In this document: piece by piece, positions 12,339 to 63,870 of the stretch | How positions within the stretch are numbered: position 1 is the stretch's first letter | How the letters are laid out: each line of letters opens with the position of its first letter | Source of the DNA: Shigella phage ChubbyThor | Sequence record: OL615013 | Strand: one strand, 5' to 3' | DNA: 64,000 nt | Made by a program: the position numbers and the translations under genes | Notes under the pieces: generated by a model | What the model saw: the letters and a program-made list of their open reading frames with translations, nothing else | Database searches by the model: none | Told to the model about the DNA's origin: nothing

Positions 12339-13169
12339 TCATTGGAATTCAACTCCATACCTTTCAAGCCATTTATCACAAGTTAAAGGATCCCAACCAT
12401 TATCTAACCTTCGAATAATCGGATTCACTTTAGCCCAGATCCCAGAAGAATTGGAACCGAATACTTCTTTAATGGCTTCTCCCTTGGTCTTACCTTTCAA
12501 TATATGGTAATGTATGTGGGCTGCCCAACACCACCAATTATCCCTATCCGGAGTCCATCTTGGCTTCTCCCAAGGCATTTGCTCTCTGGAGGTTCTGGTA
12601 AAAGCCTCAACACGTTTCCTTTCTTGGTCCGATGTCAATTTATTGGTTAGGCTCTTTCCATAACAGTGATGGTGCTCTCCTCTCTTGACACCTGCATTTC
12701 TCTTCGCAAAGAATTGTTTCAGTTCAGGGTCTTCCTTGCGCTTGTCTTCATAGAATTTCAGCAGTGAATCTGAAGTTGCATCTTTGGCTGCCTGAGACTT
12801 CTTTTTACCATACATCGGGTTGTTAGCCCCTCTGTTCTCTTCGGACAATCTCGCGGCGTATTTCTTACGCATTTTGGCGAAGAGATGTGAATTAACTCTG
12901 TGGCCATTCCTTCTCAGGATCATCAGCGCCTTTACCATACACGTATCCGGCAGCGCCAGAGCGAGACACACGTGAGCAATATAGTGGACGCGGTGTGGTA
13001 ATTTGATTAAATTGTTCTTATCTTTCTTGAATTGAGGAAATAGGGCGGCTGGAAGGATGTGGTGAAATTCTCCTTCCCCGTTGTAATCTGAATAGGCTGA
13101 AAGCAATTTCACATATTTGCCTACAAAGTGCGGTTTGCCACCTATTGTTAAAAGATATTCTCTTTTCAT
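12339..13169 (-). CDS. HNH-type homing endonuclease-like protein
   Basis: N-terminal EFHHILP...NNLIKLPHRVHYIAH (HNH pattern); NPMYGKK DNA-binding repeat like those in the GIY-YIG endonuclease at 32793. Confidence 0.6.
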   Translation of the reverse strand: MKREYLLTIGGKPHFVGKYVKLLSAYSDYNGEGEFHHILPAALFPQFKKDKNNLIKLPHRVHYIAHVCLALALPDTCMVKALMILRRNGHRVNSHLFAKMRKKYAARLSEENRGANNPMYGKKKSQAAKDATSDSLLKFYEDKRKEDPELKQFFAKRNAGVKRGEHHHCYGKSLTNKLTSDQERKRVEAFTRTSREQMPWEKPRWTPDRDNWWCWAAHIHYHILKGKTKGEAIKEVFGSNSSGIWAKVNPIIRRLDNGWDPLTCDKWLERYGVEFQ

Positions 13170-27142: not shown

Positions 27143-27607
27143 TTATTCGCTTTTGGCCTTTGTAGGCCGGATAATGTATTTTGGAACCAGCTTCCATTCA
27201 GGAACCTGATCGTGTTTAACCACTTTAATGCGTGACATATCGGCGGCTTCGGTGACCTGCTCGGGATGAATGACCTTCACCATGTTCCACTGCTCAAGCA
27301 GCTTGATGATGCGGTTCATCCTCAGGACATCTTCGCGGTTAAACCCGTTGTAATGCCCGTCCAGCATAAACAGATGCTTGAAGTGGACGATATAATACTT
27401 GCCATACTTATGAAGAATATGACAAGTCTGATACAGAGTATTCGGCTCTTGGCGCGTGTTTACCCCAATTCGGCTCAGTGTTTCCTTGATCCCCAGGAAT
27501 ATTCCTGGCCGATCTTGGTTCAATTGAACTTCAACCATACAATCAACGATGCTGGCCTCATCGTTGACGGCTGAAATGTTCAATATGTCTAGCGTATTGC
27601 GCGCCAT
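27143..27607 (-). CDS. regA: translational repressor RegA
   Basis: Recalled similarity to T4 RegA (LYQTCHILHKYGKYYIVHFKHLFMLDG ... EWKLVPKYIIRP); sits after gp62 as in T4. Confidence 0.85.
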   Translation of the reverse strand: MARNTLDILNISAVNDEASIVDCMVEVQLNQDRPGIFLGIKETLSRIGVNTRQEPNTLYQTCHILHKYGKYYIVHFKHLFMLDGHYNGFNREDVLRMNRIIKLLEQWNMVKVIHPEQVTEAADMSRIKVVKHDQVPEWKLVPKYIIRPTKAKSE

Positions 27608-32050: not shown

Positions 32051-32793
32051 CGATCCGGCCAGACTCCGTTCTGTTCTTTATCCATGCGATGGTACAGACG
32101 AACACGCTCAAACATCTTTGTCAGGATGTCATCGCGGTTGAACTCTATGATGGTTGGCGTCAACGATGACTCGTTGGCAATCACATTGATGAGGCGGGTG
32201 ATCTTGACACCGAACATCTGCTGGAACATAACAGAGTACAAGCACAGCTGGATACTGTAGTCCTCGATCATTCCCCGCGTCTTCATGGTGTTCGATGTCT
32301 TGAAGTCGATGATAGCAGGCTTACCCTCATAAACCCCGATAAGGTCCACTCGACCTGCGAGACCAAGCACCTCGCTATATAACGGGATCTCCTGAGCATA
32401 GATCTTTGTCATCTTGTTCAGATAGGGGAACAGCTGCTTGAACATGAACATGTATTCGCCAGCCGCTTCCAACACTTCTTTCATTGGGCGGTTCTTCAAA
32501 TACAGTTCACATGCAAGGTGCAGCTTCTCCCCTCGGTCAGCGCAACGCATGGTCTCAAGGTCGGCGGCCTCTGCACCCAGCTTCTCCCTCCAAGCCTCAA
32601 GCCATTCATGATCACCAGTACGCCCCAGCATCGTCGTGACAGACGTCAGCTTGACACCAGTTGGTGACACATAATGACGACCGTTCTCCGTCGTCACACA
32701 CTCCAGTTCCTTATGAGGAAGTTCGTACTGCTGGAATGTGTAATGACGATTTTCGAAGTCGTTCAGCTTGCGCAGGGCTTGGAGAGATGCCAT
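32047..32793 (-). CDS. PD-(D/E)xK nuclease (RecB/Cas4-like exonuclease family)
   Basis: GRVDLIGV...IIDFKTS (D...D/E.K) and QLCLYS (QxxxY) motifs. Confidence 0.6.
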   Translation of the reverse strand: MASLQALRKLNDFENRHYTFQQYELPHKELECVTTENGRHYVSPTGVKLTSVTTMLGRTGDHEWLEAWREKLGAEAADLETMRCADRGEKLHLACELYLKNRPMKEVLEAAGEYMFMFKQLFPYLNKMTKIYAQEIPLYSEVLGLAGRVDLIGVYEGKPAIIDFKTSNTMKTRGMIEDYSIQLCLYSVMFQQMFGVKITRLINVIANESSLTPTIIEFNRDDILTKMFERVRLYHRMDKEQNGVWPDR

Positions 32794-33515
32794 TATGTAT
32801 AATCCTTGACAAAGTTATTCCATGCTTCGTCCTCATAAGGATTCCAGCCGGATTTGAATTTGTTAACCATGGCTTGAGACACTCCGATTTTTATACCCAA
32901 TCCTTTATGAATTCTGTAATATCCATGCCCCGCTTTCCAACATTCGAAAGCACTGTCTGCGAATTTCCATTGTTCTCTAGAACCGTATTTTATAGTGGAT
33001 GGGTTATCCCAAGGATGACATCCTTTCATGGGAGATGATTTGCCAAACCAATAGTTCCTTTCACCACCGTTCATTCCTGGGAAACGTTTCCCAAACATTG
33101 GGTGTTCTTTACCCTTTCTTCCTTTCAGGGGACCAGGTTTCCCATAACCGTGATGAAGTTCGCCTCTCTTCCCAAACATGGGGTTCTTTTCGGCGGGGAG
33201 GCTGGTCGTCAACCATATGTCTTTGTCGTTATCTTGAAAATGCCGATTCAAAAGACCTGGTGTTCCCCACAAAGCCTTTATCCTTTCTTGTTCGACTCTG
33301 TATGCTTCTCCCACAGTAGAAAATACTTCTAAATGGTCAACAGAGAAATATTCATCCCCAAACTCTTTTATCATTCTTTGAACGATTTTAGAAGACGTGA
33401 AATATGTGACCCAAAATTCCTTTGGATCACATTTCTTGGCAGTACGAGAACCGATGTATACTTTACCATCTTTGGTGACGACACGGTATACATATGGGAT
33501 TCTATCATGCACCAT
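32793..33515 (-). CDS. GIY-YIG homing endonuclease (Seg-like) with NUMOD-like repeats
   Basis: N-terminal YVYRVVTKDGKVYIGSR; three NPMFGK-type repeats; start moved to ATG at 33515 with GGAGAAAG SD. Confidence 0.75.
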   Translation of the reverse strand: MVHDRIPYVYRVVTKDGKVYIGSRTAKKCDPKEFWVTYFTSSKIVQRMIKEFGDEYFSVDHLEVFSTVGEAYRVEQERIKALWGTPGLLNRHFQDNDKDIWLTTSLPAEKNPMFGKRGELHHGYGKPGPLKGRKGKEHPMFGKRFPGMNGGERNYWFGKSSPMKGCHPWDNPSTIKYGSREQWKFADSAFECWKAGHGYYRIHKGLGIKIGVSQAMVNKFKSGWNPYEDEAWNNFVKDYT

Positions 33516-33957
33516 CGAGGTACTTTCTCCAATCAATCGCATTCTTCACTTCGTATCCCAGCTTGTTCAGGCGATCCAAACAAGTCTCGATGAACTTGAC
33601 TTTTGCTTTTTGTTCTTGTAACAGAACAGACAGTTCTACATAGTCATCGTCGGCTTTGACCCATGTGTCCAGGTCAGACTTCAGGGGGCGAACCTTCAGG
33701 GGGCGCTCTGCGTAGATGTTCGGGGGTAACTCCCCTGCATAGTAGCGGCGCAGATAGAGATCGATCTGGCGGAAGCGCCCGTTGAGGAATTCAAGATAAC
33801 GCCCCTCACGCAGATAATGCCGTTGTACGGCCATCCAAGAGCGCCCGATTTTCAGTGAGATCTGGTCAAGGTTCATGTCTTCTGGGTCCACTGTAATCAG
33901 CGGCTCCAGTTCGTTCATGATGTCCTCGGTTGCCATTGTCTGTAGTTGTTCTTTCAT
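33505..33957 (-). CDS. uvsY: UvsY-like recombination mediator
   Basis: Recalled resemblance to T4 UvsY (LYLRRYYAGE vs ARLDYYSGRG; C-terminal CLDRLNKLGYEVKNAIDWRKY); same 150-aa size class; downstream of uvsW region. Confidence 0.55.
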   Translation of the reverse strand: MKEQLQTMATEDIMNELEPLITVDPEDMNLDQISLKIGRSWMAVQRHYLREGRYLEFLNGRFRQIDLYLRRYYAGELPPNIYAERPLKVRPLKSDLDTWVKADDDYVELSVLLQEQKAKVKFIETCLDRLNKLGYEVKNAIDWRKYLDGA

Positions 33958-36965: not shown

Positions 36966-37247
36966 TTAGAACAAATGCTCGCCTTCCACATGGTATGCTA
37001 ACACGCCGTCAGAACATTCAAAATACATGTTATCATATTCCCACAGAGCGGTGATTTCTTCACCCTGGCAAACTACCGAAAACTTCGGCTGGCTGGCCTT
37101 AACTGGAAATTTTTCAGGGGAAGAGATTGGGGTGAATTTGGCATTTCTGACGGCCATACCAACAAATTGCTGCAATGTTACTTTGTAACGAGAGTGGGTG
37201 ATAGTACCAGCATTCAGGGCTTCGATCAATTGCGCTTTAGTTGTCAT
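36966..37247 (-). CDS. hypothetical protein (93 aa)
   Basis: ATG preceded by conserved leader AAGGAACTATATC. Confidence 0.45.
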   Translation of the reverse strand: MTTKAQLIEALNAGTITHSRYKVTLQQFVGMAVRNAKFTPISSPEKFPVKASQPKFSVVCQGEEITALWEYDNMYFECSDGVLAYHVEGEHLF

Positions 37248-38276: not shown

Positions 38277-38339
38277 GACACAGCCCTCGGATAGTAGACG
38301 GGGCAATAATACCTCTCGCCCCGTTATTGAAATGATCTT

Positions 38340-39812
38340 TTAGTTCAAGGTATATTTGATCAGACCACAATTCCAAATCCTGACCAGCCCGGCTTCGGTT
38401 GCTAACTGGCTTTCTGTTTTGCCTTCTATGTCATAACCCATCCTAGCAAATGAATCTTTTCTGAAACCGAACTTGTGCTCACGCATAAATGTACCAGGCT
38501 TGTGATATTTGTAATCCGGCTTCTGTACTTCCTCTTCTATGAACCCGTGGGATAGGTAAATGTTCGACAGCCTGCTTACGACACACCTGTCGCCAAAAGA
38601 ATAGATTGGGACACCAACAAATTTCCTTCTGAAGTGCGATAGAAGTTTACTGAACGCCCCGTGGCAATCATTAGAGGCAAATCTGACTAATTCCAGGCCA
38701 TCTTTCCTTTTGGTAAACAACATCACAGCCTGTATCACACCAGCCTTATCAATTAGCGATAAGTGGTGGGTGGACGACACGGAACCTTGTATATGATGGG
38801 CGTCTAGAAACTCCCTCACACCGTTTATATTACCCCAAACAACTTTATGTTGGCGAGCGTATGAGACAGGCGTTTTAATGCCGAGTTTTGCCTTCAGAAG
38901 AGATTTGACCACATCCTGTTTCTCAGCCCATTCGTCTTCCCAAATATGGATCAACTGGATACCCTGAGATTCACACATTTCAGTCTTTTCTAGATGATAC
39001 CGTTTTTCTTTAAAAACTTCTGAATGCCAGTACAACCCATTGAATTCTATTGCAAGTTTGTGTTCCGGGCAGTAGATATCCAATTGTTTGCCTGACAATA
39101 TACTGTAATCAGAAACCTTGTTCACAACTCCTATTGAGGTGAGGAACTCGGATATTTCTTTTTCATAAGAAGATTTCTTATTCCTGACAGAACCATTGTT
39201 AAACAATGCACGTTTCAATATGATCGAGTTTTTCATGGGATTGTCAACACCATAACGTTCTTGTAATGTTATCAACGCCTTCTTCCTCACACCAGGTAGT
39301 TGTAGTGTAGAGCAGCTCCCATATTTGGATATATTTGAAGCCTCTATAGCTTTCCGACCAACCCCGCCTTTACACATAGAAATCTGATAACATTCTTCGG
39401 AACAATATGTTCTGTAATCTTTGTCATTGATGTAAAAGTTGGTTTCTTTGGAACACACAGGGCACATTTTCACGGTTCTATTGTGTAACCATGCTGTGAC
39501 TTTACAGGCCAGATCTTGTAGGGTGTTATGGGCGTTGGCAAATATCAACAGGTCCAATCTGATGTGCTTCATTAACAAATTAGATTTGCATTTCTGAATA
39601 TCCAATTTGTTGTTCTTAGTGAACATGTGTTTATGGAAAAATTGACGATAAGATTCTTCATCCGAAAGGCACGTCGCATCAGCAACAAATTCCGGTGATA
39701 GATTTTTCAATGTGTTGCTAGAAAACGTTTTACAACCATCTGAACAAAATTTCTTATCTTTCCTGGATGCTTTGAACTGTTCATGACAGACACTACAGAT
39801 TACCTGATACAT
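38340..39812 (-). CDS. putative freestanding endonuclease: N-terminal zinc ribbons plus Vsr/DUF559-like PD-(D/E)xK domain
   Basis: CxxC pairs (CSVCHE...CSDGC, CPVCSKE...CSEEC); LDIYCPEHKLAIEFNGLYWHSE matches Vsr/DUF559 core; AT-rich by eye; inserted beside gp23. Confidence 0.45.
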   Translation of the reverse strand: MYQVICSVCHEQFKASRKDKKFCSDGCKTFSSNTLKNLSPEFVADATCLSDEESYRQFFHKHMFTKNNKLDIQKCKSNLLMKHIRLDLLIFANAHNTLQDLACKVTAWLHNRTVKMCPVCSKETNFYINDKDYRTYCSEECYQISMCKGGVGRKAIEASNISKYGSCSTLQLPGVRKKALITLQERYGVDNPMKNSIILKRALFNNGSVRNKKSSYEKEISEFLTSIGVVNKVSDYSILSGKQLDIYCPEHKLAIEFNGLYWHSEVFKEKRYHLEKTEMCESQGIQLIHIWEDEWAEKQDVVKSLLKAKLGIKTPVSYARQHKVVWGNINGVREFLDAHHIQGSVSSTHHLSLIDKAGVIQAVMLFTKRKDGLELVRFASNDCHGAFSKLLSHFRRKFVGVPIYSFGDRCVVSRLSNIYLSHGFIEEEVQKPDYKYHKPGTFMREHKFGFRKDSFARMGYDIEGKTESQLATEAGLVRIWNCGLIKYTLN

Positions 39813-39867
39813 AATTGTTCTCCTTCGTATGGTATCTAGTATAACCTGTTTGGTATTATGAACAAAT

Positions 39868-39890
39868 AAAACCCCGCCGAAGCGGGGTTT
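39868..39890 (-). terminator. intrinsic terminator downstream of major capsid gene
   Basis: CCCCGC / GCGGGG stem with CGAA tetraloop, A/T extension; minus-strand RNA continues UUUUAUUUGUU. Confidence 0.65.
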
Positions 39891-39918: not shown

Positions 39919-41250
39919 TTAAAACAGGCCTTTTATTAACCCTTTACGGAAGTAAGGGTTGCTGTCCTGGGCGATACCATCCGCAGTCACATAGACCTGT
40001 GGATCCTGGTTCTCTGGGATCTGAACGAATGGGTTAGCACAAATCCCGTAGCGGGTCTTGAACGCCATACGTGGGCTGAAGGTGGTTTCACCCTGGGTGC
40101 GGTACATTTCCAGCGGCACATACGGCGCGAAGAAGATACCAGCATCCAGCGCGGTCGCGCCTTTGTATGCCAGGGTGATGTACTCTGCTACTGCATACGG
40201 GTCGATGTAGACACGCATACCGTTAGACAGAACACCAGCGAAGGTCTGGCCAGTTGGGTCGATCGCCAGCTTGGTGTTTTCCTGCAGCGCCGGAGCGTAA
40301 TCCAGCATGCCGGACATTGCCAGAGCGGATGCTACGTTCGGAGAACACAGAACACGGTTGCCTTTACCACGACGGGTGTCAACACCGATGCCGTTCGCTT
40401 CAACTTCCAGCATGAAAGTCATGTACTTCCATTTTTCCAGCGCCCAACGACCGGAGATGTCAGTGGAGATGTCTACAACGCCGTTTGCGCCGAATTTTTT
40501 GAAGCGTACTGCGCTGAAGTTCATGGTACGGATGAACTCACGGTTCATTTCCGCCTGAATTTCAGTTACCATCACGTCGGACAGGATGCTGTCAACGTCT
40601 TCGCCGTGGATCGCCATCATGTCCTGGCGCAGTTCATGGCTGTAGTCAGCGTACAGGCCACGAGACTTCGCAGTCACGGTTGCTTTCTGAACGGTGATAC
40701 CAACACGCGCCCATGGGTTGGTGGTGGTGCCCAGCAGTTCAGCGTCGGTGGTCGGCATGCCTTTACCGATGGTGGTCACGCCAGCGCCGGAACCTTCGAT
40801 CTCGGCCTGAGTAAAGCCAGATGGATCGCCAGCCTGTACAGTACCGTCACCAGAGTAGCCGGAATCAGCTTCCTGCATGAACAGTTCTTTACGGGACTGT
40901 TGGGTGTTGGATGAGTCGCCGACGCCCTGGCGAGCACGCAGAGCAAAGATCTGACCGTCAGGACCAGACAGCGGCTGTACGCCGAAGAAGTCCATCGCGA
41001 TGTTGATCGGAGCCAGACGTTTTGCCATGTCGATCAGGACTGGCTGCCATTTGCCCACAGAGTTGTTCACAGAACCAGGAGCGTCAGATTCGCCCAGGTT
41101 TTTGGCGTTCCACTCAGCCTGGTTTTGCAGCAGGCGGACAGCAACGTTTTCGGCAGACAGCGGCTGAATCTGTTTGGACTCTTCGGAGAGTACTGGCAGC
41201 CACTCTTTGCGCATTTCTTCGGTAACAAGTTTCTTAGCCATGGTGGTCAT
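39919..41250 (-). CDS. 23: major capsid protein (T4 gp23-like)
   Basis: Recalled similarity to T4 gp23 (GVQPLSGPDGQIFALRA, AFKTRYGICANPF, C-terminal YFRKGLIKG); T4 late-gene order. Confidence 0.85.
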   Translation of the reverse strand: MTTMAKKLVTEEMRKEWLPVLSEESKQIQPLSAENVAVRLLQNQAEWNAKNLGESDAPGSVNNSVGKWQPVLIDMAKRLAPINIAMDFFGVQPLSGPDGQIFALRARQGVGDSSNTQQSRKELFMQEADSGYSGDGTVQAGDPSGFTQAEIEGSGAGVTTIGKGMPTTDAELLGTTTNPWARVGITVQKATVTAKSRGLYADYSHELRQDMMAIHGEDVDSILSDVMVTEIQAEMNREFIRTMNFSAVRFKKFGANGVVDISTDISGRWALEKWKYMTFMLEVEANGIGVDTRRGKGNRVLCSPNVASALAMSGMLDYAPALQENTKLAIDPTGQTFAGVLSNGMRVYIDPYAVAEYITLAYKGATALDAGIFFAPYVPLEMYRTQGETTFSPRMAFKTRYGICANPFVQIPENQDPQVYVTADGIAQDSNPYFRKGLIKGLF

Positions 41251-41281
41251 TCCTTACATTGATATTCAGTTAAGTTGAAAT

Positions 41282-41288
41282 TACTTAG
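41282..41288 (-). promoter_or_regulatory. CTAAGTA variant motif upstream of gp23
   Basis: minus-sense ACTACTAAGTAATTTCAAC about 32 nt upstream of ATG 41250. Confidence 0.3.
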
Positions 41289-41300
41289 TAGTTCAAAATC

Positions 41301-41320
41301 AAGCCCCCTTTCGAGGGCTG
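41301..41320 (-). terminator. hairpin between gp22 and gp23
   Basis: AGCCC / GGGCU-type stem; minus-strand RNA continues UGAUUUUGAAC. Confidence 0.4.
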
Positions 41321-41332
41321 TGGCTGCTAAAA

Positions 41333-42190
41333 TTAGCCGTTGATGCCGTACTTCGCACGATATGCTTCACGCTGACGACGAATAGATTCTTTCAGCTCTT
41401 TGTCTGTTTCATCTTCATCGTCTTTGTCGTCATCGCCTTCTTTCTTAGACTTTTTGCCTTCGTCGACTTTGTCTTTGTCGCCTTTGTTGTCGTCGTCACC
41501 GTCTTTGCCGCCGACTTTGTCCTGGAAGTCATCGTCATCGCCTTCTTTCTTCGCGGACTTACCTTCTACCAGGTTGCGGAAGGTGTGTACGCGGGAAGCG
41601 AATTCGCTTTCGGTGGTGAACTGCACCGCTTCCAGCAGATTGACAACCGTTGCTTTCTTGGTGTCGACCATGCCTTCACAGATACGGGCGATCACAGAGT
41701 CGCGCAGAGTCGCATTCGCGGCTTCTTTGATTTGACGGTTTTCGCTTTCAGCAGCCGCAGCGCGTTGTTCTGCTTCTGTCAGGCGGGCAGTCAGCGCAGC
41801 GATCTGGCCGTTTTCGTCAGTCGCAAAGTTGATACCAGCTTCTTTCAGAACGCCAGTCAGGCCAGTCAGCAGGTTTTCAGCTGCTTCACGCTTGATCTGA
41901 GCATCGATTGCAGGAGCGTTGGTGTTAGCCCACTCTTCTACAACAGCGTTCAGGAAGCTGTCAACTTTGGTTGCGATCTCCATCAAGTGAGACTCTTTCA
42001 GCTGAGCAATTTCAGACTGATGAGCTTCAACCAGACGCAGGCGCTCGACGTTGGCAGCGTTTTCGGTTTCTTGAATAGCGGTCAGGCGAGCGGCTTCTAC
42101 TTTAGATTCCAGCAGACCAGACACTTTATCCAGGAAGTCGGTGCTGAGGCCGTTAACGCCCTCAAACAGTTTTTGCAATTCAGGTTTCAT
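41333..42190 (-). CDS. 22: prohead core scaffold protein (T4 gp22-like)
   Basis: Coiled-coil, highly acidic KD/E-rich C-terminus; position between gp21 and gp23. Confidence 0.7.
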   Translation of the reverse strand: MKPELQKLFEGVNGLSTDFLDKVSGLLESKVEAARLTAIQETENAANVERLRLVEAHQSEIAQLKESHLMEIATKVDSFLNAVVEEWANTNAPAIDAQIKREAAENLLTGLTGVLKEAGINFATDENGQIAALTARLTEAEQRAAAAESENRQIKEAANATLRDSVIARICEGMVDTKKATVVNLLEAVQFTTESEFASRVHTFRNLVEGKSAKKEGDDDDFQDKVGGKDGDDDNKGDKDKVDEGKKSKKEGDDDKDDEDETDKELKESIRRQREAYRAKYGING

Positions 42191-45744: not shown

Positions 45745-46452
45745 TTACACAATTCTAATTAGCTGCCAACCCGTCGTGTTCAAACGCTCTGCGGTCGCAG
45801 TTTTCCTATGATACACAGACGGCGGTGGAACTGGAATACCCTTGTCGATGTAATCATACAATGCTGAATATTTAAGTCCCAACCTCTCCACGTATTCACG
45901 ACAATTCCCGTGGATTTCGTGTTCTTCGCCGGATGGAGATACCAATTTGAATCGCTTGGCGTTTCCGTTTTGTTCTCCAACGCGTTTCCCCTTCCAGTAG
46001 CCCGACATACACTTCTTGTATTCGTCTGGCCTGGGCTTTCCTTTCAGACAATGTATGATATCTCCAGATTCCCATCTGGGGTCATCTAACTCTACCGCGC
46101 CCAACCTTTGACCAGAAATCGAATCAATCGCTCCGGCCTTTCCTCTTGTTGTCTGCCCGTCACCGCCCCAAGTCTTGTTGTACCCCCGCTGGGTGGACAT
46201 GTGGGTTCCGTGTTGCTTTATAAGAATGATTTCCAATTCTTTTAGATCTTCCACGGAATAGGTCTGGGCTAACACTTGAACAGAAAAGGACTCTTCTCCG
46301 TACTTTCTTATTGCTTGGTGAATAAAGTAATCAGATCCCTTCTGAGCACTATTGCAGTGCTCCCACCACCTTTGCATAGGGTCTCTCGTCGTTATCCCGA
46401 TATAGGCTTTCTGATTGACGAGATTTGTAATTTTGTAAACACTTCCGATCAT
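45745..46452 (-). CDS. GIY-YIG homing endonuclease inserted between tail sheath and tail tube genes
   Basis: N-terminal SVYKITNLVNQKAYIGITT with downstream RWWEH; C-terminal basic region. Confidence 0.8.
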   Translation of the reverse strand: MIGSVYKITNLVNQKAYIGITTRDPMQRWWEHCNSAQKGSDYFIHQAIRKYGEESFSVQVLAQTYSVEDLKELEIILIKQHGTHMSTQRGYNKTWGGDGQTTRGKAGAIDSISGQRLGAVELDDPRWESGDIIHCLKGKPRPDEYKKCMSGYWKGKRVGEQNGNAKRFKLVSPSGEEHEIHGNCREYVERLGLKYSALYDYIDKGIPVPPPSVYHRKTATAERLNTTGWQLIRIV

Positions 46453-59328: not shown

Positions 59329-61113
59329 TCAAGCGGAAGCATTCCATTGGCCAGCATTGATCACCCATGTGCTCGTTACTTTTGAATACACCATTTTCAC
59401 GAGATTCATTTTCGTGGTGGCGGTGTTAGCGCCAGTCACATCAACAGGGACACCCGCTATGCTCAATGAAGCAATGTTTGAACCTCTCAGTAAAAACGTC
59501 AGCTCCATACCATCATATGGCGTACCAGTAAATGCGATGTTGGAACCAGAAGAAACGTTTCTTCGATAGCACCCATAACCGCTGTTTATGTCGACAGAGT
59601 CAGTTGTGAGCTGTAATGGCAATTTTCCACGACTTAGTTTACATGCCGTTACAACGCCGAGATCATCAATGCCTCGACTTGCACCCCAACGTGCGATGTT
59701 GACTATGTGGCCAGTCACACCAGCGTCTTGCGCACCACCAATGTCGAAGAAACCTCCAGCCCTTGTACCCCATATCGGCTCATCAATCAAGCTGTTGGTG
59801 GAGCCAGTTACACTATAACCATGTGCGAGGGTTCCTTGGCTTGGAGAAGAGTGTGTACAATCTCGGAATGTAGCATCTTGAGAACCACTGATGCGGACAT
59901 CAGAGATACTATTGTTCTCGTAATACATTCCATATACCTTTGTTCCCTTGGCCTGATCCAAGAAACCATACTTCGTGGTATTCTGGCTGAACCCGTTAAC
60001 AAAACAGACTGCTTCTGTGGGGAATGTTGTGGTGTAATCCCAAGAGGTCCCGCCGTCGGTGGAGTGTCTTACGATAATACCATAATCTGGCATATCCACT
60101 TCTGGTGCACCGGAATAACCGTCAAATCCTGTTATCACAATAGCATTGGCACCGTTCTGTACTATTAACCGACTAGAACCAGCCCCGCCGCCGATAACCT
60201 CGCAACCGTCTATTTTCAAACCGTAGCACAAAGTCCCTATCTCTATCCCGACATTATTAATGGCCGTCCCCATGTCTACCCACATCATATCCAGATGTCC
60301 ATGGTTCCTCCAATATTTGGCTCTGAAAGCGACGCAACCCGTTTTACCATTCAATGATATTCTGATATTGTGTAATTTGCAGTTTCTCACTGCATTGCCA
60401 CCAGAACGGGAAGGGTCAATCGTGAGAACACCGACATTATTTCCACCAGCCAAGAATAATGCACCGGAATGTGCATAAATTTCAGAGTTAGGATAAAACG
60501 CCAACGCCTGGCCAGTTACCGTATAGTTGCCAGGAAGAAACTGGAATGTCCCACCCTGGGATAATTTAGTTTGTATAAGAGACTGAGACATCGAAGGGTC
60601 GATGACAGTTAGACGATAAAACCCAGAGTATAACTCATCTCTCAATGCATCTGGATCCAATTTCACCCAGTTAGAACTTGACAACCCACCAGTATTGGCA
60701 ATGGTGCTCCCAGCATTTACAGATTTGGGTAAAGTACCACCCCAACGGTAAAGGCTTGTACCATCAGAAACGACTTCATTTCTAACACGTATCGTGAACC
60801 CCGAATCGAAGTTTTCGACCAAAGTTACAAATTCCTTCCGAAGCACTGCAAGAACCCCCAGGTCTACAGTGCCCGTATTGTGTACGAGAATGCCGTCTGT
60901 CAGGCTGGTGATGGTAGCGCCAGCGGGCAGGTTGGAAGGCAGTGCATAGGAGCGCTGAGTGACCTTATCGTAGATCACCTTGTAACCAGTCAGGGTGGAT
61001 CCTGGTTTAGCATAGAGAACCTCAGACTTCTTGCACCCAAACTTACGAGCAATGGAGTCTTTGTTTGTCTCCTTAGAGACAGAGCCTTTCGGCTGTGAAA
61101 ATTGCGGATTCAT
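59329..61113 (-). CDS. tailspike-like protein with right-handed beta-helix region (putative depolymerase)
   Basis: Repetitive G/N/V/I-rich segments (NAVRNCKLHNIRISLNGKTGCVAF ... GIEIGTLCYGLKIDGCEVIGGGAG) typical of pectate-lyase-fold tailspikes. Confidence 0.6.
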   Translation of the reverse strand: MNPQFSQPKGSVSKETNKDSIARKFGCKKSEVLYAKPGSTLTGYKVIYDKVTQRSYALPSNLPAGATITSLTDGILVHNTGTVDLGVLAVLRKEFVTLVENFDSGFTIRVRNEVVSDGTSLYRWGGTLPKSVNAGSTIANTGGLSSSNWVKLDPDALRDELYSGFYRLTVIDPSMSQSLIQTKLSQGGTFQFLPGNYTVTGQALAFYPNSEIYAHSGALFLAGGNNVGVLTIDPSRSGGNAVRNCKLHNIRISLNGKTGCVAFRAKYWRNHGHLDMMWVDMGTAINNVGIEIGTLCYGLKIDGCEVIGGGAGSSRLIVQNGANAIVITGFDGYSGAPEVDMPDYGIIVRHSTDGGTSWDYTTTFPTEAVCFVNGFSQNTTKYGFLDQAKGTKVYGMYYENNSISDVRISGSQDATFRDCTHSSPSQGTLAHGYSVTGSTNSLIDEPIWGTRAGGFFDIGGAQDAGVTGHIVNIARWGASRGIDDLGVVTACKLSRGKLPLQLTTDSVDINSGYGCYRRNVSSGSNIAFTGTPYDGMELTFLLRGSNIASLSIAGVPVDVTGANTATTKMNLVKMVYSKVTSTWVINAGQWNASA

Positions 61114-61164: not shown

Positions 61165-63870
61165 TTAGTTAACGGAATCGAGAGAAGAAATCAATTTCAA
61201 ATTGATCTGTACCTGAGACTCCGCAGTTACAGCAGGAATAGCCAGACCACCAGCATTAAGCCCAAAATTCGCAATAAAGCCAGTAGTTGAAGATCTCACT
61301 ACGTCAAATCCTGTACCGCCTGAGCCGGTGCTTGCAAATTGAGTCTGCTTAGCACCGAAAGCATCACCCGTACCAGCTATTGCTACTTGCCAAATACCAC
61401 GGAATAACGTAGCCGCAATATTAGCTGCCGCAGCGCCAGCAGCACGAGTGATCTTCATGTTGTCGTAGAACCAGACTTCCTGAATTGTAGCAATGTTACG
61501 AGCACCGAAACTAACAACTTGGTTCCCTTCAAAGCTGTAGTTAGTTCGGTTATCAACAACAAAATCACATAACATACAGGTCTGGGTAGACACATTAAGA
61601 TCTAAGGTATTTCCATGTGCAATGAGTGACTTAGGAATACCTTGTACGCGGAAACCCGCAGAACGGTATGTAAGATTCAACGTATTTAATTGCTTGATAC
61701 TGTTAGCCATCAGTTTCACACGTTGACCTCGGTATACCATAGTGTTAGCTGCACCTGCGTTAACAATAATACCTTCGGCATTGTTATTAAGCGTATCGCA
61801 CTTCAGCACTACAGTATTATGGCTAATATCAATATCCTGGAACACAGCATAAGTTGCATCCCCTGCTCCGGTACTGATTGCAACACCATCAAAAGCTCGG
61901 AGTTCGCAATAGTTATTATTGATTTTAACAAAAGGATCTGGGTAAGTAGCCTGGGTTGCTTCACCCCCACCACCAACATCAATGCTCCTTGTATACTTGC
62001 CTCCAATTAACAAACCAGTAGTAAAACTGGCAGGTATGTTACGAGAACGCACATAGTTATTGGAAATGATTAAGTTATAAGGTTCATAGTTCGGTGCCCA
62101 ACCCGACCCACATTTAGCATAAATACCTACAACACCATGTTCTAAACACTGGTTATTGGTAATGATCGCCTGACCGCCACCGTGGAAGTCAATACACTTA
62201 CGGCGACAGTTACGAATCATGTTTTCACTGATGGTTACATTACGAATGCGGCGGTTACGTCCATGCGTGATTCCGTAACCAGGATCGTAACTGGCATTCA
62301 GGGTATCATCACCATTCGGGTGACCAATATCTTCAATGTTATTTCCCAGATAAACTAAGCGATAACCAGACAACACATAAATTCCTGCACTGTAACAGTT
62401 ACGAATGTAACACTTGCTTACCATCACACCATCTGGAACATCAGATTCTGTGGTGTAGTCGGCGCTACCGTAAGCTACGGCTGCATTACGGATACCAATA
62501 CCTACAGCACCATAGTTAAAGCCTGTGATGCGGCAACGATTGATTAAAATGCCACGACAAGCACGCTGAACTTTAATACCACAAGCCCAGCTACCGATGT
62601 AACCATTTAAGAACTCACCCCATTTGTTCTGCCAACCTGCTGCTTGGGATCCATCAGCATTATAATTAGGGAATTGTCCTTGAGTACCGTCATAAGCACC
62701 ACTGGTATAGTTGCTGGTATCAAGCCCATTATTAGGTGCAAGTACCATAGCGCTGTCATACCCGAAACGCTCTTCGCCTTTTTCAGCATAACCAGTAGTA
62801 ACATCGATAGCAGGAAATACACCTGGCCCCTGAATTGCTAACTCTACAGTCACGTTTTCACAAGCAATAAGCGCAAGTGCATCCATACCGTGAGTTTTTA
62901 CAATTAAAGTACCGTTGTAAATTTTGATGTTCTTCTTGCCTACTAAAGCCAAGCAAGGACTAAAGTTGTGAGTACCGTCAGAAAAATCAGGTTCAGATGG
63001 ATATTTAGTAGCCAAGTCTGGATTTTTACTGATCAGGTACGTACCACCATAGAGATTAATATCTCCAGTGGATGCATCAAAATAATTTTGAAGCGCTTTA
63101 GTATCATCAGCCTGACCATCAGCTTTTGCTTTAAAATCTTTAGGGCTTAAGTTCTCATTGCCTTTATCCTGGATAGTACGTGCTACCGTATCCGCACCAG
63201 GGGCTTTGTAGCCAACTAAAGATGAACCTGTAGATTTGGCTAAATCTGCACGAAGGGTGTCATCTACGCTTTCTAAAGCCTCATTAATAGTGTTAAGTTC
63301 TTCCTGTACCGTGTTACCGGAAGTTGTACCAATCAGACTTGCGCCTCCATCGGAAGAGAGCGCCAGGTAATTCTGTTTGATGGACATCTCAGCCACAACC
63401 CAAACACCAGCAGCCGGAGATCCATTCAGGAACGACACCACACCAGTCGTTCTGTTGTAGGTGTAATCAACCCCAGGAACCTGGAACTTCCCGTCAATGT
63501 GCAGAGATTGTACACCATATGTCGTGAAGTCTGGGGTGAATGAGGTCTCGCTGCCAACTGCCTGGAACTTGTAGATGCGAATCCCGTTTTCATAATCTTC
63601 TGGTGACAGGATCTTGTCAAATAGGCAGTAAACGACGTCATCTGCTTCAAGAGATCGACCGAGGTTGACTGTGTTCCCATCGATTTCATAGTTGTCAACA
63701 GGAACCTGGACGCCGCCGTTGATGGTGATGAATCCCGTAACAGGATAGAACGGGAGGGAGATAAACGTCTCTCCACCCGTTGCTGTGTAAGTGTATGGAA
63801 TCTGGTGCGGGGCTGTTACAACCGCTCCAAAGATGCTCTCGACGTTTCTGGTCATTTGAAGATACCCCAT
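61165..63870 (-). CDS. tailspike-like protein with right-handed beta-helix region (putative depolymerase)
   Basis: PbH1-like repeats (IRNCYSAGIYV, ISENMIRNCRRKCIDFHGGGQAIITNNQCLEHGVVGIY, IISNNYVRSRN); 901 aa. Confidence 0.6.
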   Translation of the reverse strand: MGYLQMTRNVESIFGAVVTAPHQIPYTYTATGGETFISLPFYPVTGFITINGGVQVPVDNYEIDGNTVNLGRSLEADDVVYCLFDKILSPEDYENGIRIYKFQAVGSETSFTPDFTTYGVQSLHIDGKFQVPGVDYTYNRTTGVVSFLNGSPAAGVWVVAEMSIKQNYLALSSDGGASLIGTTSGNTVQEELNTINEALESVDDTLRADLAKSTGSSLVGYKAPGADTVARTIQDKGNENLSPKDFKAKADGQADDTKALQNYFDASTGDINLYGGTYLISKNPDLATKYPSEPDFSDGTHNFSPCLALVGKKNIKIYNGTLIVKTHGMDALALIACENVTVELAIQGPGVFPAIDVTTGYAEKGEERFGYDSAMVLAPNNGLDTSNYTSGAYDGTQGQFPNYNADGSQAAGWQNKWGEFLNGYIGSWACGIKVQRACRGILINRCRITGFNYGAVGIGIRNAAVAYGSADYTTESDVPDGVMVSKCYIRNCYSAGIYVLSGYRLVYLGNNIEDIGHPNGDDTLNASYDPGYGITHGRNRRIRNVTISENMIRNCRRKCIDFHGGGQAIITNNQCLEHGVVGIYAKCGSGWAPNYEPYNLIISNNYVRSRNIPASFTTGLLIGGKYTRSIDVGGGGEATQATYPDPFVKINNNYCELRAFDGVAISTGAGDATYAVFQDIDISHNTVVLKCDTLNNNAEGIIVNAGAANTMVYRGQRVKLMANSIKQLNTLNLTYRSAGFRVQGIPKSLIAHGNTLDLNVSTQTCMLCDFVVDNRTNYSFEGNQVVSFGARNIATIQEVWFYDNMKITRAAGAAAANIAATLFRGIWQVAIAGTGDAFGAKQTQFASTGSGGTGFDVVRSSTTGFIANFGLNAGGLAIPAVTAESQVQINLKLISSLDSVN

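What the first reader, a model, noticed from the sequence alone, without database searches (positions are those of the whole stretch)
38340..39812. Zinc-ribbon plus Vsr/DUF559-like nuclease gene adjacent to the major capsid gene
A 490-aa ORF combines N-terminal CxxC zinc ribbons with a central LDIYCPEHKLAIEFNGLYWHSE segment matching the Vsr/DUF559 PD-(D/E)xK core. It looks AT-richer than the flanking genes by eye, and it sits directly downstream of gp23, a common insertion hotspot for freestanding endonucleases. With the HNH and two GIY-YIG genes this makes four endonuclease-like genes in 64 kb.
Basis: partly seen in the sequence, partly recalled or inferred. Interest (0 to 1): 0.45.

Follow-up and report, generated by a model that had tools for sequence, protein, structure and literature searches.

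The report
Hef-like homing endonuclease gene after gp23
This is an intact selfish "homing endonuclease" gene of the already described Hef-like type. It sits just after the major capsid gene of a ViI-like (Ackermannviridae) phage, so it is ordinary, except that the family also carries a little-noticed domain resembling the DNA-modifying enzyme Mom of phage Mu.

Summary
A 490-aa ORF lies at 38340-39812 (-), 106 nt downstream of gp23. It has two CxxC...CxxxC zinc modules and a Vsr/DUF559-like nuclease core. Its GC is 0.403, the lowest in the window (window mean 0.50, -3.7 sd).

The window comes from an Aglimvirinae (Ackermannviridae) phage. The ORF is the orthologue (about 91% nt and aa identity) of LIMEstone1 F-LimVII, published in 2012 as a free-standing "Hef-like" homing endonuclease at this same site. 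The nuclease belongs to the Vsr-like "EDxHD" lineage of I-Bth0305I.

Evidence that it is a mobile gene:
- The closest relatives by flank identity (Ag3, SW16-7; 97-100%) lack a 1535-bp cassette that is exactly the gene plus its 5' UTR. They carry small ORFs or a GIY-YIG gene there instead.
- Other relatives carry different Hef-like genes at the same spot.
- The last ~140 nt of gp23 switch to resembling HEG-bearing genomes, as a co-conversion tract would.
- dN/dS is 0.07-0.12.

Residues 311-490 form a GNAT fold most like Mom, with Mom's essential Arg/Ser/Asp/Tyr conserved across the family. The function of this domain is unknown.

Verdict: already known kind; interest is low to moderate.

The parts
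38340..39812 (-). Complete ORF (490 aa plus TAA stop): a Hef-like free-standing homing endonuclease gene, orthologue of LIMEstone1 F-LimVII
   Evidence: ORF list. PHROG 3339 'homing endonuclease' E=1.5e-158. 90.8% nt identity to F-LimVII at the same site. dN/dS 0.07-0.12 against four orthologues.
39198..39812 (-). N-terminal region (res 1-205), the presumed DNA-targeting part. It has two C-x2-C-x13/16-C-x3-C treble-clef/zinc-ribbon modules (res 6-27 and 117-141), helical linkers, and a DUF7487-like KYG...NPM repeat (res 155-204).
   Evidence: Sequence. Weak Pfam YacG (res 117-148) and DUF7487 (res 155-204) hits. Model shows beta-hairpins followed by helices, pLDDT around 90. This region is the variable part across the family, carrying DUF7487, DUF4379 or DUF723 in different members.
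38883..39197 (-). Vsr/EDxHD-like nuclease domain (res 206-310). Family-invariant residues are E217, D245, E256, G259, H263, H273, K276 and D293; N258 and E292 are nearly invariant.
   Evidence: [quoted passage not shown] Foldseek Vsr 1cw0_A E=1.3e-3. Column counts in the 60-sequence alignment.
38343..38882 (-). C-terminal GNAT-fold, Mom-like domain (res 311-490). Invariant residues are R320, H340, Q342, G343, R377, G385, D408, Y419, R444 and G483; S388 is found in 46 of 60.
39820..39826 (-). Shine-Dalgarno sequence GAAGGAG, 7 nt upstream of the ATG
   Evidence: Read directly from the sequence.
39828..39846 (-). 19-nt 5'-UTR element GGTTATACTAGATACCATA, invariant in 8 orthologues. It could pair with the equally invariant first 17 nt of the CDS and so hide the AUG. 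Its function is unproven.
   Evidence: Alignments. Fold predictions: significant only when the terminator is included (z -2.8); z -0.47 alone; no covariation.
39869..39890 (-). gp23 intrinsic terminator hairpin plus T-run. It is conserved in phages with and without the gene and marks the upstream edge of the cassette.
   Evidence: Terminator scan. Annotated as a terminator in LIMEstone1. Conserved in all 10 genomes aligned.
38333..39867 (.). 1535-bp cassette (gene plus about 55-nt 5' UTR) absent from the closest relatives Ag3 and SW16-7
   Evidence: blastn breakpoints at 38332 and 39868 against Ag3, and 38332 and 39864 against SW16-7. Junction alignments.
39919..40060 (-). 3' end of gp23: a co-conversion-like patch
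   Evidence: Identity to the Hef-less phages Ag3 and SW16-7 is 82-91% here. It is 86-97% to AV101 and 90-96% to LIMEstone1, both of which carry the gene (97% to AV101 over the central part). Beyond about 40060 the window returns to 99-100% identity with Ag3, SW16-7 and LIMEstone1. The differences from these two phages are synonymous apart from one window-specific Ala-to-Glu change.

Best explanation
The ORF is a functional, free-standing homing endonuclease gene of the Hef-like family (PHROG 3339). Its nuclease belongs to the Vsr-like 'EDxHD' branch of the PD-(D/E)xK superfamily. The gene lies in a phage of the subfamily Aglimvirinae (Ackermannviridae).

Shown by the data:
- It is the orthologue of LIMEstone1 F-LimVII at the same locus.
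- It is a compositionally foreign 1.5-kb cassette placed immediately after the gp23 terminator.
- The cassette is present or absent among near-identical genomes and is exchangeable with other endonuclease genes.
- It is under strong purifying selection in all three domains.

Inferred from how characterised relatives work (I-Bth0305I; Hef of phage U5):
- The gene is transcribed mainly by read-through of the gp23 late transcript, because no promoter was found and it has a strong SD.
- The variable N-terminal zinc-ribbon and helical modules recognise a DNA site near the gene's own locus, most likely in or next to the 3' end of gp23.
- The Vsr-like domain (E217, D245, E256, N258, H263, plus invariant H273 and K276) cleaves DNA with Mg2+.
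- In mixed infections the break in a gene-less relative is repaired from the gene-bearing genome. This copies the cassette and the adjacent gp23 markers.

The invariant Mom-like GNAT domain is part of the family's conserved core. Its role is not known. My preferred guess is that it dimerises the enzyme and/or grips double-stranded DNA. Mom is a dimer that acts on dsDNA.
For: Identity and locus:
- PHROG 3339 E=1.5e-158.
- About 91% nt identity to F-LimVII in the same position, with gp23 and its terminator upstream.
- F-LimVII is listed as a free-standing Hef-like homing endonuclease in PMC3296691.

Nuclease:
- 3r3p_A E=0.004, with catalytic positions aligned.
- Taylor et al. 2011 place phage Hef-type enzymes in the EDxHD family.
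- Foldseek to Vsr E=1.3e-3.
- Catalytic positions are invariant in 60 homologues of 30-90% identity.
- Hef of phage U5 is reported to cleave nrdB (PMC2988022).

Mobility signatures:
- GC 0.403 against 0.50, the window minimum, and deviant codon usage.
- Cassette boundaries at 38332 and 39868, with flanks 97-100% identical to the gene-less Ag3 and SW16-7.
- The same site holds a GIY-YIG gene (SW16-7), other Hef-like genes (PC3, fGh-Ecl02) or only small ORFs (Ag3).
- A patch at the gp23 3' end matches gene-bearing genomes.
- The core is found at 1027 places in 416 phage records, up to 12 copies per genome.
- One member sits inside the three-piece RNA polymerase beta' gene of phage AR9, which indicates an intron location.
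- Another sits between gp23 and gp24 of a T4-like Acinetobacter phage.

Intactness: dN/dS 0.07-0.12 for the N-terminal, nuclease and GNAT parts.
Against: - No cleavage or homing has been shown for this protein or for any F-LimVII orthologue. The target site is unknown.
- gp23 3' variants do not sort cleanly by presence or absence of the gene, so the co-conversion tract could be ordinary mosaic recombination.
- The last residue of the EDxHD motif is not conserved. It is E275 here, and the column is E/N/D.
- The sequence-level nuclease hits are at or below curated Pfam and NCBIfam cut-offs.
- No promoter was found.
- The best explanation gives no tested role to the conserved Mom-like domain, and strong conservation of Mom's catalytic residues sits awkwardly with a purely structural role.
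Confidence: 0.82

Rival explanations
1. Bifunctional enzyme. The Mom-like GNAT domain is catalytically active and acylates or aminoacylates a base, as Mom does to adenine N6 using Gly-tRNA. The protein would then both cut and chemically mark DNA, for example protecting its own genome's target or working like a fused restriction-modification unit. This reading is compatible with homing but adds a second activity.
For: - The GNAT fold is closest among viral stand-alone proteins to Mom.
- Pfam Mom hits 13 of 60 homologues, and no other acyltransferase (GNAT-type) family is among the 25 Pfam families listed (27 matched).
- Residues aligned with Mom's essential R111, S124, D149 and Y159 are R377, S388, D408 and Y419. 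Three are invariant and S388 is found in 46 of 60.
- The domain has dN/dS 0.05-0.18.
- Nuclease plus GNAT is the constant core of the family, while the N-termini vary.
Against: - The alignment to Mu Mom is weak (hhalign probability 28%).
- The Pfam Mom model does not hit this protein itself, and Mom is not among the PDB sequence hits of the domain profile.
- No adenine modification is reported for these phages in anything I read.
- Conserved pocket residues could instead bind DNA or a flipped base without catalysis.
- I-Bth0305I works as a homing endonuclease without such a domain.
Confidence: 0.12
2. A domesticated nuclease kept for the phage's benefit rather than as a selfish element. Possible roles are excluding the markers of competing phages, degrading host DNA, or processing recombination and repair intermediates.
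For: - Strong purifying selection.
- Retention across the Limestonevirus genomes listed and several Agtrevirus-like phages.
- From memory of Sandegren et al. 2005, Hef and SegH cut both gene-bearing and gene-less DNA, which those authors discussed as possibly advantageous. That paper is not held in the library.
Against: - Distribution is patchy among phages with 97-100% identical flanks.
- The gene is replaced by unrelated endonuclease genes or by nothing.
- Its composition is foreign.
- Other phages carry many copies at different places.
Confidence: 0.08
3. A Vsr-type very-short-patch repair nickase acting on T:G mismatches.
For: Weak hits to Pfam Vsr (8e-4) and TIGR00632 (1.9e-4), plus structural similarity to 1cw0 and 1vsr.
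Against: - Scores are far below the curated cut-offs: 19.6 against 27 bits, and 21.7 against 97.85 bits.
- The architecture is different (zinc ribbons plus GNAT).
- Vsr residue His64 is Asn here.
- The closest solved sequence relative is a homing endonuclease.
Confidence: 0.02
4. A decaying, inactive relic of a homing endonuclease gene.
For: Homing endonuclease genes commonly degenerate after fixation. The last EDxHD position is not Asp.
Against: The ORF is full length, all 18 family-invariant residues are retained, and dN/dS is 0.07-0.12 in every domain.
Confidence: 0.03

Closest known systems
F-LimVII (ORF137) of Dickeya phage LIMEstone1, and its orthologues in AV101, vB_CECAV_050, pSal-SNUABM-02, RPN242, ZQ1 and YX22
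   Same: Same length (490-491 aa), about 91% identity, and the same position and orientation directly after the gp23 terminator. Same low GC (0.41-0.42). The 5'-UTR element is identical.
   Different: The window's allele is not identical to any sequence on record (best match 92% aa). In the window the cassette abuts the orf181 homologue directly. LIMEstone1 has a different small ORF (ORF136) there, and pSal-SNUABM-02, RPN242 and YX22 keep an extra small ORF.
Hef of T-even-like phage U5 and the 'Hef-like' homing endonucleases of T4-like, Campylobacter, jumbo and other phages (PHROG 3339 / 559)
   Same: Same conserved core (nuclease plus C-terminal domain) over about 286 aa at 28-40% identity. 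Free-standing genes lying next to conserved genes. Annotators label them Hef-like or EDxHD.
   Different: The N-terminal DNA-binding modules differ (DUF7487, DUF723 or DUF4379 arrays against two zinc modules here), so target sites must differ. I could not compare directly with the U5 Hef sequence, and the paper (PMC1275590) is not held.
I-Bth0305I (PDB 3R3P), prototype of the EDxHD / Vsr-like homing endonuclease family
   Same: Homologous catalytic domain. E217, D245, E256, N258 and H263 correspond to E170, D196, E206, N208 and H213, and both share the KLAIE-x-NG-x-YW motif.
   Different: I-Bth0305I is intron-encoded. Its nuclease is C-terminal, preceded by NUMOD/HTH modules, and it has no GNAT domain. 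The position of Asp222 is E275 here and variable in the family, whereas H273 and K276 are invariant.
Mom of phage Mu (PDB 8BV8; Pfam PF25680), a GNAT-fold enzyme that modifies adenine in dsDNA using Gly-tRNA
   Different: Here the domain is fused to a nuclease. Sequence similarity to Mu Mom itself is marginal, and no modifying activity is known. This family has a more canonical glycine-rich beta4-alpha3 loop (G385-G/A-x-S) than Mom.
E. coli Vsr and the DUF559 / MTES_1575 restriction-endonuclease-like domains
   Same: Same nuclease fold and the D...E-x-(N/D/H)-G-x3-H signature.
   Different: Below the family cut-offs for Vsr. No Vsr zinc site or mismatch-intercalating residues could be identified from sequence. 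The domain context is different.

Membership tests
Hef-like free-standing homing endonucleases (PHROG 3339; F-LimVII orthologue group) | Significant full-length sequence match to the family, including the nuclease and C-terminal core | tested here: met
   PHROG 3339 E=1.5e-158 over res 205-489. 90-92% aa identity to F-LimVII-type proteins. 1858 homologues.
Hef-like free-standing homing endonucleases (PHROG 3339; F-LimVII orthologue group) | Same genomic position as the named orthologue (between the gp23 terminator and the downstream small ORFs) | tested here: met
Hef-like free-standing homing endonucleases (PHROG 3339; F-LimVII orthologue group) | Site-specific DNA cleavage close to its own locus, and super-Mendelian inheritance in mixed infection | not testable with these tools
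   Needs enzyme assays and phage crosses. Only reported for Hef of U5, at second hand through PMC2988022.
Homing endonuclease gene (operational genomic criteria) | Presence/absence polymorphism at one locus among otherwise near-identical genomes, with precise cassette boundaries | tested here: met
   Flanks are 97-100% identical to Ag3 and SW16-7, which lack window positions 38333-39867. Alternative occupants are seen at the same site.
Homing endonuclease gene (operational genomic criteria) | Co-conversion of flanking markers with the gene | tested here: inconclusive
   The 3' 140 nt of gp23 resemble gene-bearing genomes (97% to AV101 over the central part) more than the otherwise closest gene-less ones (82-91%). 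However, variants do not segregate strictly with the gene, and the left flank shows no tract.
Homing endonuclease gene (operational genomic criteria) | Deviant base composition and codon usage, but an intact, constrained ORF | tested here: met
   GC 0.403, -3.7 sd. Codon-usage rank 4 of 36, alongside the three other endonuclease genes. dN/dS 0.07-0.12.
EDxHD / Vsr-like homing endonucleases (I-Bth0305I) | Vsr-like nuclease fold | tested here: met
   Foldseek 1cw0_A E=1.3e-3, probability 1.00, and 1vsr E=5e-3. phmmer 3r3p_A E=0.004.
EDxHD / Vsr-like homing endonucleases (I-Bth0305I) | Conserved Glu, Asp and His of the motif (E170, D196 and H213 in I-Bth0305I) | tested here: met
   E217, D245 and H263 are invariant in 60 of 60 homologues and align to those positions.
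EDxHD / Vsr-like homing endonucleases (I-Bth0305I) | Final Asp of the motif (D222 in I-Bth0305I, D97 in Vsr) | tested here: inconclusive
   phmmer aligns E275, a column that is E24/N18/D13. An ungapped register would instead place the invariant H273 there. K276 and D293 are also invariant.
EDxHD / Vsr-like homing endonucleases (I-Bth0305I) | Architecture: N-terminal NUMOD/HTH DNA-binding region followed by a C-terminal nuclease | tested here: not met
   Here the nuclease is central, preceded by zinc ribbons and followed by a GNAT domain. Taylor et al. nevertheless include Hef-type proteins in the family on the basis of the catalytic domain.
Vsr mismatch endonuclease (PF03852 / TIGR00632) | Score above the curated family cut-off | tested here: not met
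   19.6 against 27 bits; 21.7 against 97.85 bits.
DUF559 (PF04480) | Score above the Pfam gathering threshold | tested here: inconclusive
   20.6 bits against a cut-off of 20.6, over res 237-306. 14 of 60 homologues hit it.
Mom family (PF25680), GNAT superfamily | GNAT fold | tested here: met
Mom family (PF25680), GNAT superfamily | Match to the Pfam Mom model | tested here: inconclusive
   Not reported for this protein at E<=1. Reported for 13 of 60 homologues, best 1.4e-8, with at least two above the gathering score. Membership is therefore only transitive.
Mom family (PF25680), GNAT superfamily | Residues essential in Mu Mom (R111, S124, D149, R151, Y159, H58/Y59) | tested here: inconclusive
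   hhalign pairs R377, S388, D408 and Y419 with R111, S124, D149 and Y159. R409 is one position off R151, and H340 lies near H58. The alignment probability is only 28%.
Mom family (PF25680), GNAT superfamily | DNA adenine modification activity | not testable with these tools
   Needs nucleoside mass spectrometry.

The most novel reading that the evidence does not exclude
Hef-like homing endonucleases, found at more than 1000 places in the phage collection searched, are not simple nucleases. Their invariant C-terminal Mom-like GNAT domain keeps Mom's catalytic constellation. It may be an active DNA (adenine) acyl- or aminoacyl-transferase, which would make the family a fused cut-and-modify enzyme. 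Such an enzyme could, for example, mark its own genome's target to escape self-cleavage, or carry anti-restriction activity along with a selfish gene. As far as the held literature shows, no other homing endonuclease family is described as carrying such a domain.
Probability: 0.12. Interest if true: 0.7.

Novelty: already known. Interest (0 to 1): 0.25.

Why it matters
For the window itself this is routine annotation: one of four selfish endonuclease genes in a ViI-like phage, and a marker of recent recombination around the major capsid gene. It shows cleanly that the slot just after the gp23 terminator is a shared landing site for unrelated endonuclease families in Ackermannviridae, and also in at least one T4-like phage. 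That matters for reading mosaicism in capsid-gene phylogenies.

The only point with wider reach is the conserved nuclease plus Mom-like GNAT core of the whole Hef-like family. A few GenBank annotators flagged it as 'nuclease/acetyltransferase'. I found no discussion of it in the searchable literature, and it is cheap to test.

Tried and rejected
- **Paralogues in the window.** tblastn of the protein against all 64 kb found none.
- **Own promoter.** The sigma-70-type scan found no more sites than shuffles give (6 against 4.9), and none between the terminator and the ATG. No TATAAATA-type late box is visible in the 55-nt UTR, and none is annotated there in LIMEstone1.
- **RBS/AUG-sequestering hairpin.** It is predicted in context (z -2.8, but that includes the terminator). 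Alone it is no better than shuffles (z -0.47). Eight orthologues give invariant arms and therefore no covariation. It is kept only as an observation.
- **A diagnostic target-site variant in gp23.** Variants at the gp23 3' end do not sort strictly by presence or absence of the gene, so no target site can be named.
- **Original Hef paper.** PMC1275590 is not in the library. What I say about it is from memory or from the review PMC2988022.
- **Literature linking Hef-like enzymes to a GNAT, acetyltransferase or Mom domain.** Three searches found nothing relevant.
- **Exact-sequence look-up of the protein.** It is not on record.
- **Vsr repair enzyme and pseudogene readings.** Rejected on the cut-offs and on the dN/dS values.
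Full report
**1. What is there**

The ORF listing gives a 490-aa ORF at 38340..39812 on the minus strand, on the same strand as nearly all genes of the window. It starts 106 nt after the stop of a 443-aa gene. That gene is the T4-type major capsid protein gp23 of a ViI-like phage, and it follows the scaffold (gp22), prohead protease (gp21) and portal genes.

Between gp23 and the ORF lies a strong intrinsic terminator: a 9-bp stem at 39890-39869 followed by a T-run. After it come about 55 nt of leader and a GAAGGAG Shine-Dalgarno sequence 7 nt before the ATG.

The protein has two C-x2-C...C-x3-C modules, C6/C9/C23/C27 and C117/C120/C137/C141. The quoted LDIYCPEHKLAIEFNGLYWHSE segment is at residues 244-265.

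**2. Composition**

- GC is 0.403 and GC3 is 0.440, against 0.501 for the window. This is the lowest of 66 ORFs.
- It is 3.7 sd below the mean of all 1473-bp windows, and the global minimum of that scan overlaps the ORF.
- In a synonymous-codon divergence measure, the four most deviant ORFs of 200 aa or more are this gene and the three other endonuclease-like genes: 12339-13169, 32793-33542 and 45745-46452.
- Pfam and PHROGs identify those three as a NUMOD3/HNH-type gene and two GIY-YIG homing endonuclease genes.

**3. Whose gene it is**

Megablast places the region in Ackermannviridae, subfamily Aglimvirinae. The ORF is about 91% identical in nucleotides to ORF137 of Dickeya phage LIMEstone1, annotated 'putative homing endonuclease F-LimVII'. 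That gene has the same length and orientation, with the gp23 terminator immediately upstream.

Adriaenssens et al. 2012 list F-LimVII as a free-standing 'Hef-like' homing endonuclease, one of 14 such genes in that phage (PMC3296691). Orthologues are also found in AV101, vB_CECAV_050, pSal-SNUABM-02, RPN242, ZQ1 and YX22. PHROG 3339 'homing endonuclease' matches at E=1.5e-158. The exact protein is not on record, and the best match is 92% identical.

**4. The nuclease**

Pfam hits are weak but consistent: MTES_1575 at 6e-5, DUF559 at 4e-4 (exactly at its gathering score) and Vsr at 8e-4.

The only significant solved relative by sequence is 3r3p_A, the catalytic domain of the homing endonuclease I-Bth0305I (E=0.004). 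In that alignment D245 and H263 fall on the two residues mutated to alanine in the crystal (D196A, H213A). E217, E256 and N258 fall on matching Glu, Glu and Asn of the chain, which I read as E170, E206 and N208.

Taylor et al. 2011 define the 'EDxHD' family from these residues. They state that it includes 'bacteriophage Hef type homing endonucleases' (PMC3239194).

An AlphaFold2 model built on a 60-sequence alignment has mean pLDDT 92.5. Foldseek matches its central domain to Vsr (1cw0_A E=1.3e-3, probability 1.00; 1vsr).

In the 60 homologues (30-91% identity), E217, D245, E256, G259, H263, H273, K276 and D293 are invariant, and N258 occurs in 50 of 60.

The last Asp of the EDxHD motif is the one uncertain position. 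phmmer puts E275 there, a column that varies as E/N/D. An ungapped register would put the invariant H273 there instead.

**5. Evidence that it is a mobile cassette**

The phages whose flanks are closest to the window, Shigella phage Ag3 and Salmonella phage SW16-7, lack the gene.

- Homology with Ag3 stops at window position 38332 and resumes at 39868. Position 38332 is 8 nt past the stop codon, and 39868 is the end of the terminator T-run. With SW16-7 it stops at 38332 and resumes at 39864.
- The left flank is 99-100% identical to Ag3 up to the junction.
- In place of the 1535-bp cassette, Ag3 has three small ORFs (orf182-184). SW16-7 has two of them plus a 283-aa GIY-YIG gene.
- PC3 has a 621-aa Hef-like gene in the same slot, and fGh-Ecl02 has a 508-aa one that is about 52% identical.
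- Dickeya phage RC-2014 carries an orf183-like gene next to a NUMOD3/GIY-YIG-type gene related to the one in SW16-7. I did not check that this pair lies at the gp23 slot.
- Homologues of orf183 are widespread in Kuttervirus, so small ORFs look like the older state.

On the right side, the last ~140 nt of gp23 (39919-40060) are only 82-91% identical to Ag3 and SW16-7. They are 86-97% identical to the gene-bearing AV101 (97% over the central part) and 90-96% to LIMEstone1. Beyond about 40060 the window returns to 99-100% identity with Ag3, SW16-7 and LIMEstone1 and drops to 92-96% with AV101. The differences from Ag3 and SW16-7 are synonymous, apart from one window-specific Ala-to-Glu change.

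This is what a co-conversion tract looks like when the gene is acquired from a donor. It is not proof, because the variants do not sort strictly by presence of the gene across nine genomes.

**6. Functional state**

Against four orthologues dN/dS is 0.07-0.12. It is similarly low for the N-terminal part (0.09-0.11), the nuclease (0.06-0.09) and the C-terminal domain (0.05-0.18). All 18 family-invariant residues are present. The gene is not a relic.

**7.

Residues 311-490 fold as a GNAT (acyl-CoA N-acyltransferase) domain.

- Among predicted viral structures, stand-alone proteins of about 200 aa that match this domain include 'Mom [Salmonella phage FSL SP-031]' (E=4e-8, TM 0.61).
- A profile of the domain hits GNAT sequences in the PDB (2fia_A at 3e-4; GCN5 at 0.015), but not Mom itself.
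- The Pfam 'Mom protein family' model (PF25680) does not report this protein. It does hit the same domain in 13 of 60 homologues (best 1.4e-8, at least two above the gathering score). No other acyltransferase (GNAT-type) family is among the 25 Pfam families listed (27 matched).
- hhalign against Mu Mom (E=6e-4, probability only 28%) pairs ELVR377 with ELNR111, S388 with S124, SFGD408 with SFAD149 and Y419 with Y159. R111, S124, D149, R151 and Y159 are reported as essential or important for Mom. Mom has recently been shown to transfer glycine from Gly-tRNA to adenine N6 in dsDNA (PMC13219725; see also PMC7261163).
- R377, D408 and Y419 are invariant in 60 of 60, and S388 is found in 46 of 60.

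Across the family the nuclease plus this domain is the constant core. The N-terminal modules vary (DUF7487, DUF4379 treble-clef fingers, DUF723).

Two GenBank records call a family member 'putative nuclease/acetyltransferase protein', so the fusion has been noticed by annotators. Three full-text searches found no paper discussing it.

**8. How widespread the family is, and in what contexts**

tblastn of the 286-aa core finds 1027 places in 416 phage records. These include Vibrio, Campylobacter (10-12 copies per genome), Klebsiella jumbo phages, Acinetobacter T4-like phages, Lak megaphages and Thermus phages.

In Bacillus phage AR9 a member lies inside the three-piece joined gene for the virion RNA polymerase beta' subunit, which indicates an intron location. 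In the T4-like Acinetobacter phage Konradin a member lies between gp23 and gp24. Both contexts fit a homing lifestyle.

**9. Mechanism proposed**

Shown:
- a foreign, intact, constrained endonuclease cassette at a polymorphic slot;
- a nuclease homologous to a biochemically proven homing endonuclease.

Inferred:
- Transcription is by read-through of the gp23 terminator. No promoter was found, and none is annotated in LIMEstone1.
- DNA recognition is by the variable zinc-ribbon and helical N-terminus.
- The Vsr-like site cleaves with Mg2+ at a target near the locus, probably in or beside the gp23 3' end.
- Repair from the gene-bearing genome copies the cassette and the adjacent markers.

A 19-nt leader element (39846-39828) and the first 17 nt of the CDS are invariant in eight orthologues, whereas the spacer around the SD varies. 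The two could pair and hide the AUG, but there is no covariation and no energetic significance. I record this only as a possibility.

The role of the Mom-like domain is open. Dimerisation or dsDNA grip is my default, because Mom is a dimer that acts on dsDNA. An active transferase is the more interesting alternative.

**10. Verdict**

The thing itself is already known: an orthologue was published in 2012, and the family has been tied to the EDxHD lineage since 2011. Interest is low to moderate. It is raised slightly by the unexplained, strongly conserved Mom-like domain in a very widespread endonuclease family.

Noticed in passing
window 12339-13169 (-), 32793-33542 (-), 45745-46452 (-): Three more low-GC ORFs (GC 0.434, 0.417, 0.465). 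They are homing-endonuclease-like: one NUMOD3 / PHROG 655 (HNH-type) and two GIY-YIG (PHROG 314). Together with the target gene they are the four most codon-deviant ORFs of 200 aa or more in the window.
   Followed up: partly
window 59329-61113 (-) and 61165-63870 (-): Two large ORFs (594 and 901 aa) with low GC (0.469 and 0.445; GC3 0.45 and 0.38) at the right end of the window. Their composition suggests horizontally exchanged modules, perhaps tailspikes, but I did not check.
   Followed up: no
window about 40023-40025 (gp23 codon in ...IPENQDP...): The window's gp23 has Glu where all eight compared Ackermannviridae have Ala (IPANQDP). This is a unique non-synonymous change inside the co-conversion-like patch next to the endonuclease gene.
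   Followed up: no
window 41107-41450 (5' end of gp23 / 3' end of gp22): A second mosaic patch. Here the window is 99-100% identical to SW16-7 but only 78-90% identical to Ag3, LIMEstone1 and AV101. This shows that the head-gene block is a patchwork of recombination tracts independent of the endonuclease cassette.
   Followed up: no
window 38298-38324 (-): A hairpin (ACGGGGC, 13-nt loop, GCCCCGT) without a T-run lies just downstream of the endonuclease stop codon. It belongs to the flank, because it is also present in the gene-less Ag3 and SW16-7, and it precedes the orf181 homologue.
   Followed up: partly
window 27143-27607 (-): A 154-aa ORF matches the bacteriophage translational regulator family (RegA-like, PF01818, E=2e-34). 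This is a T4-type translational repressor in a ViI-like phage.
   Followed up: no
L013 (Bacillus phage AR9) 1907-3391; L014 (Acinetobacter phage Konradin) 946-2370: Members of the same nuclease plus GNAT family occur in two other contexts. One lies inside the three-piece joined virion RNA polymerase beta' gene of AR9, next to a second intron ORF annotated 'HNH endonuclease, group I intron VSR'. The other lies between gp23 and gp24 of a T4-like phage and is annotated 'putative nuclease/acetyltransferase protein'.
   Followed up: partly
window 36966-37247 (-): A small 93-aa ORF with low GC (0.443) and no Pfam match. Around it the window differs sharply from AV101 (33-65% identity in 100-nt windows), so this is another variable slot.
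   Followed up: no
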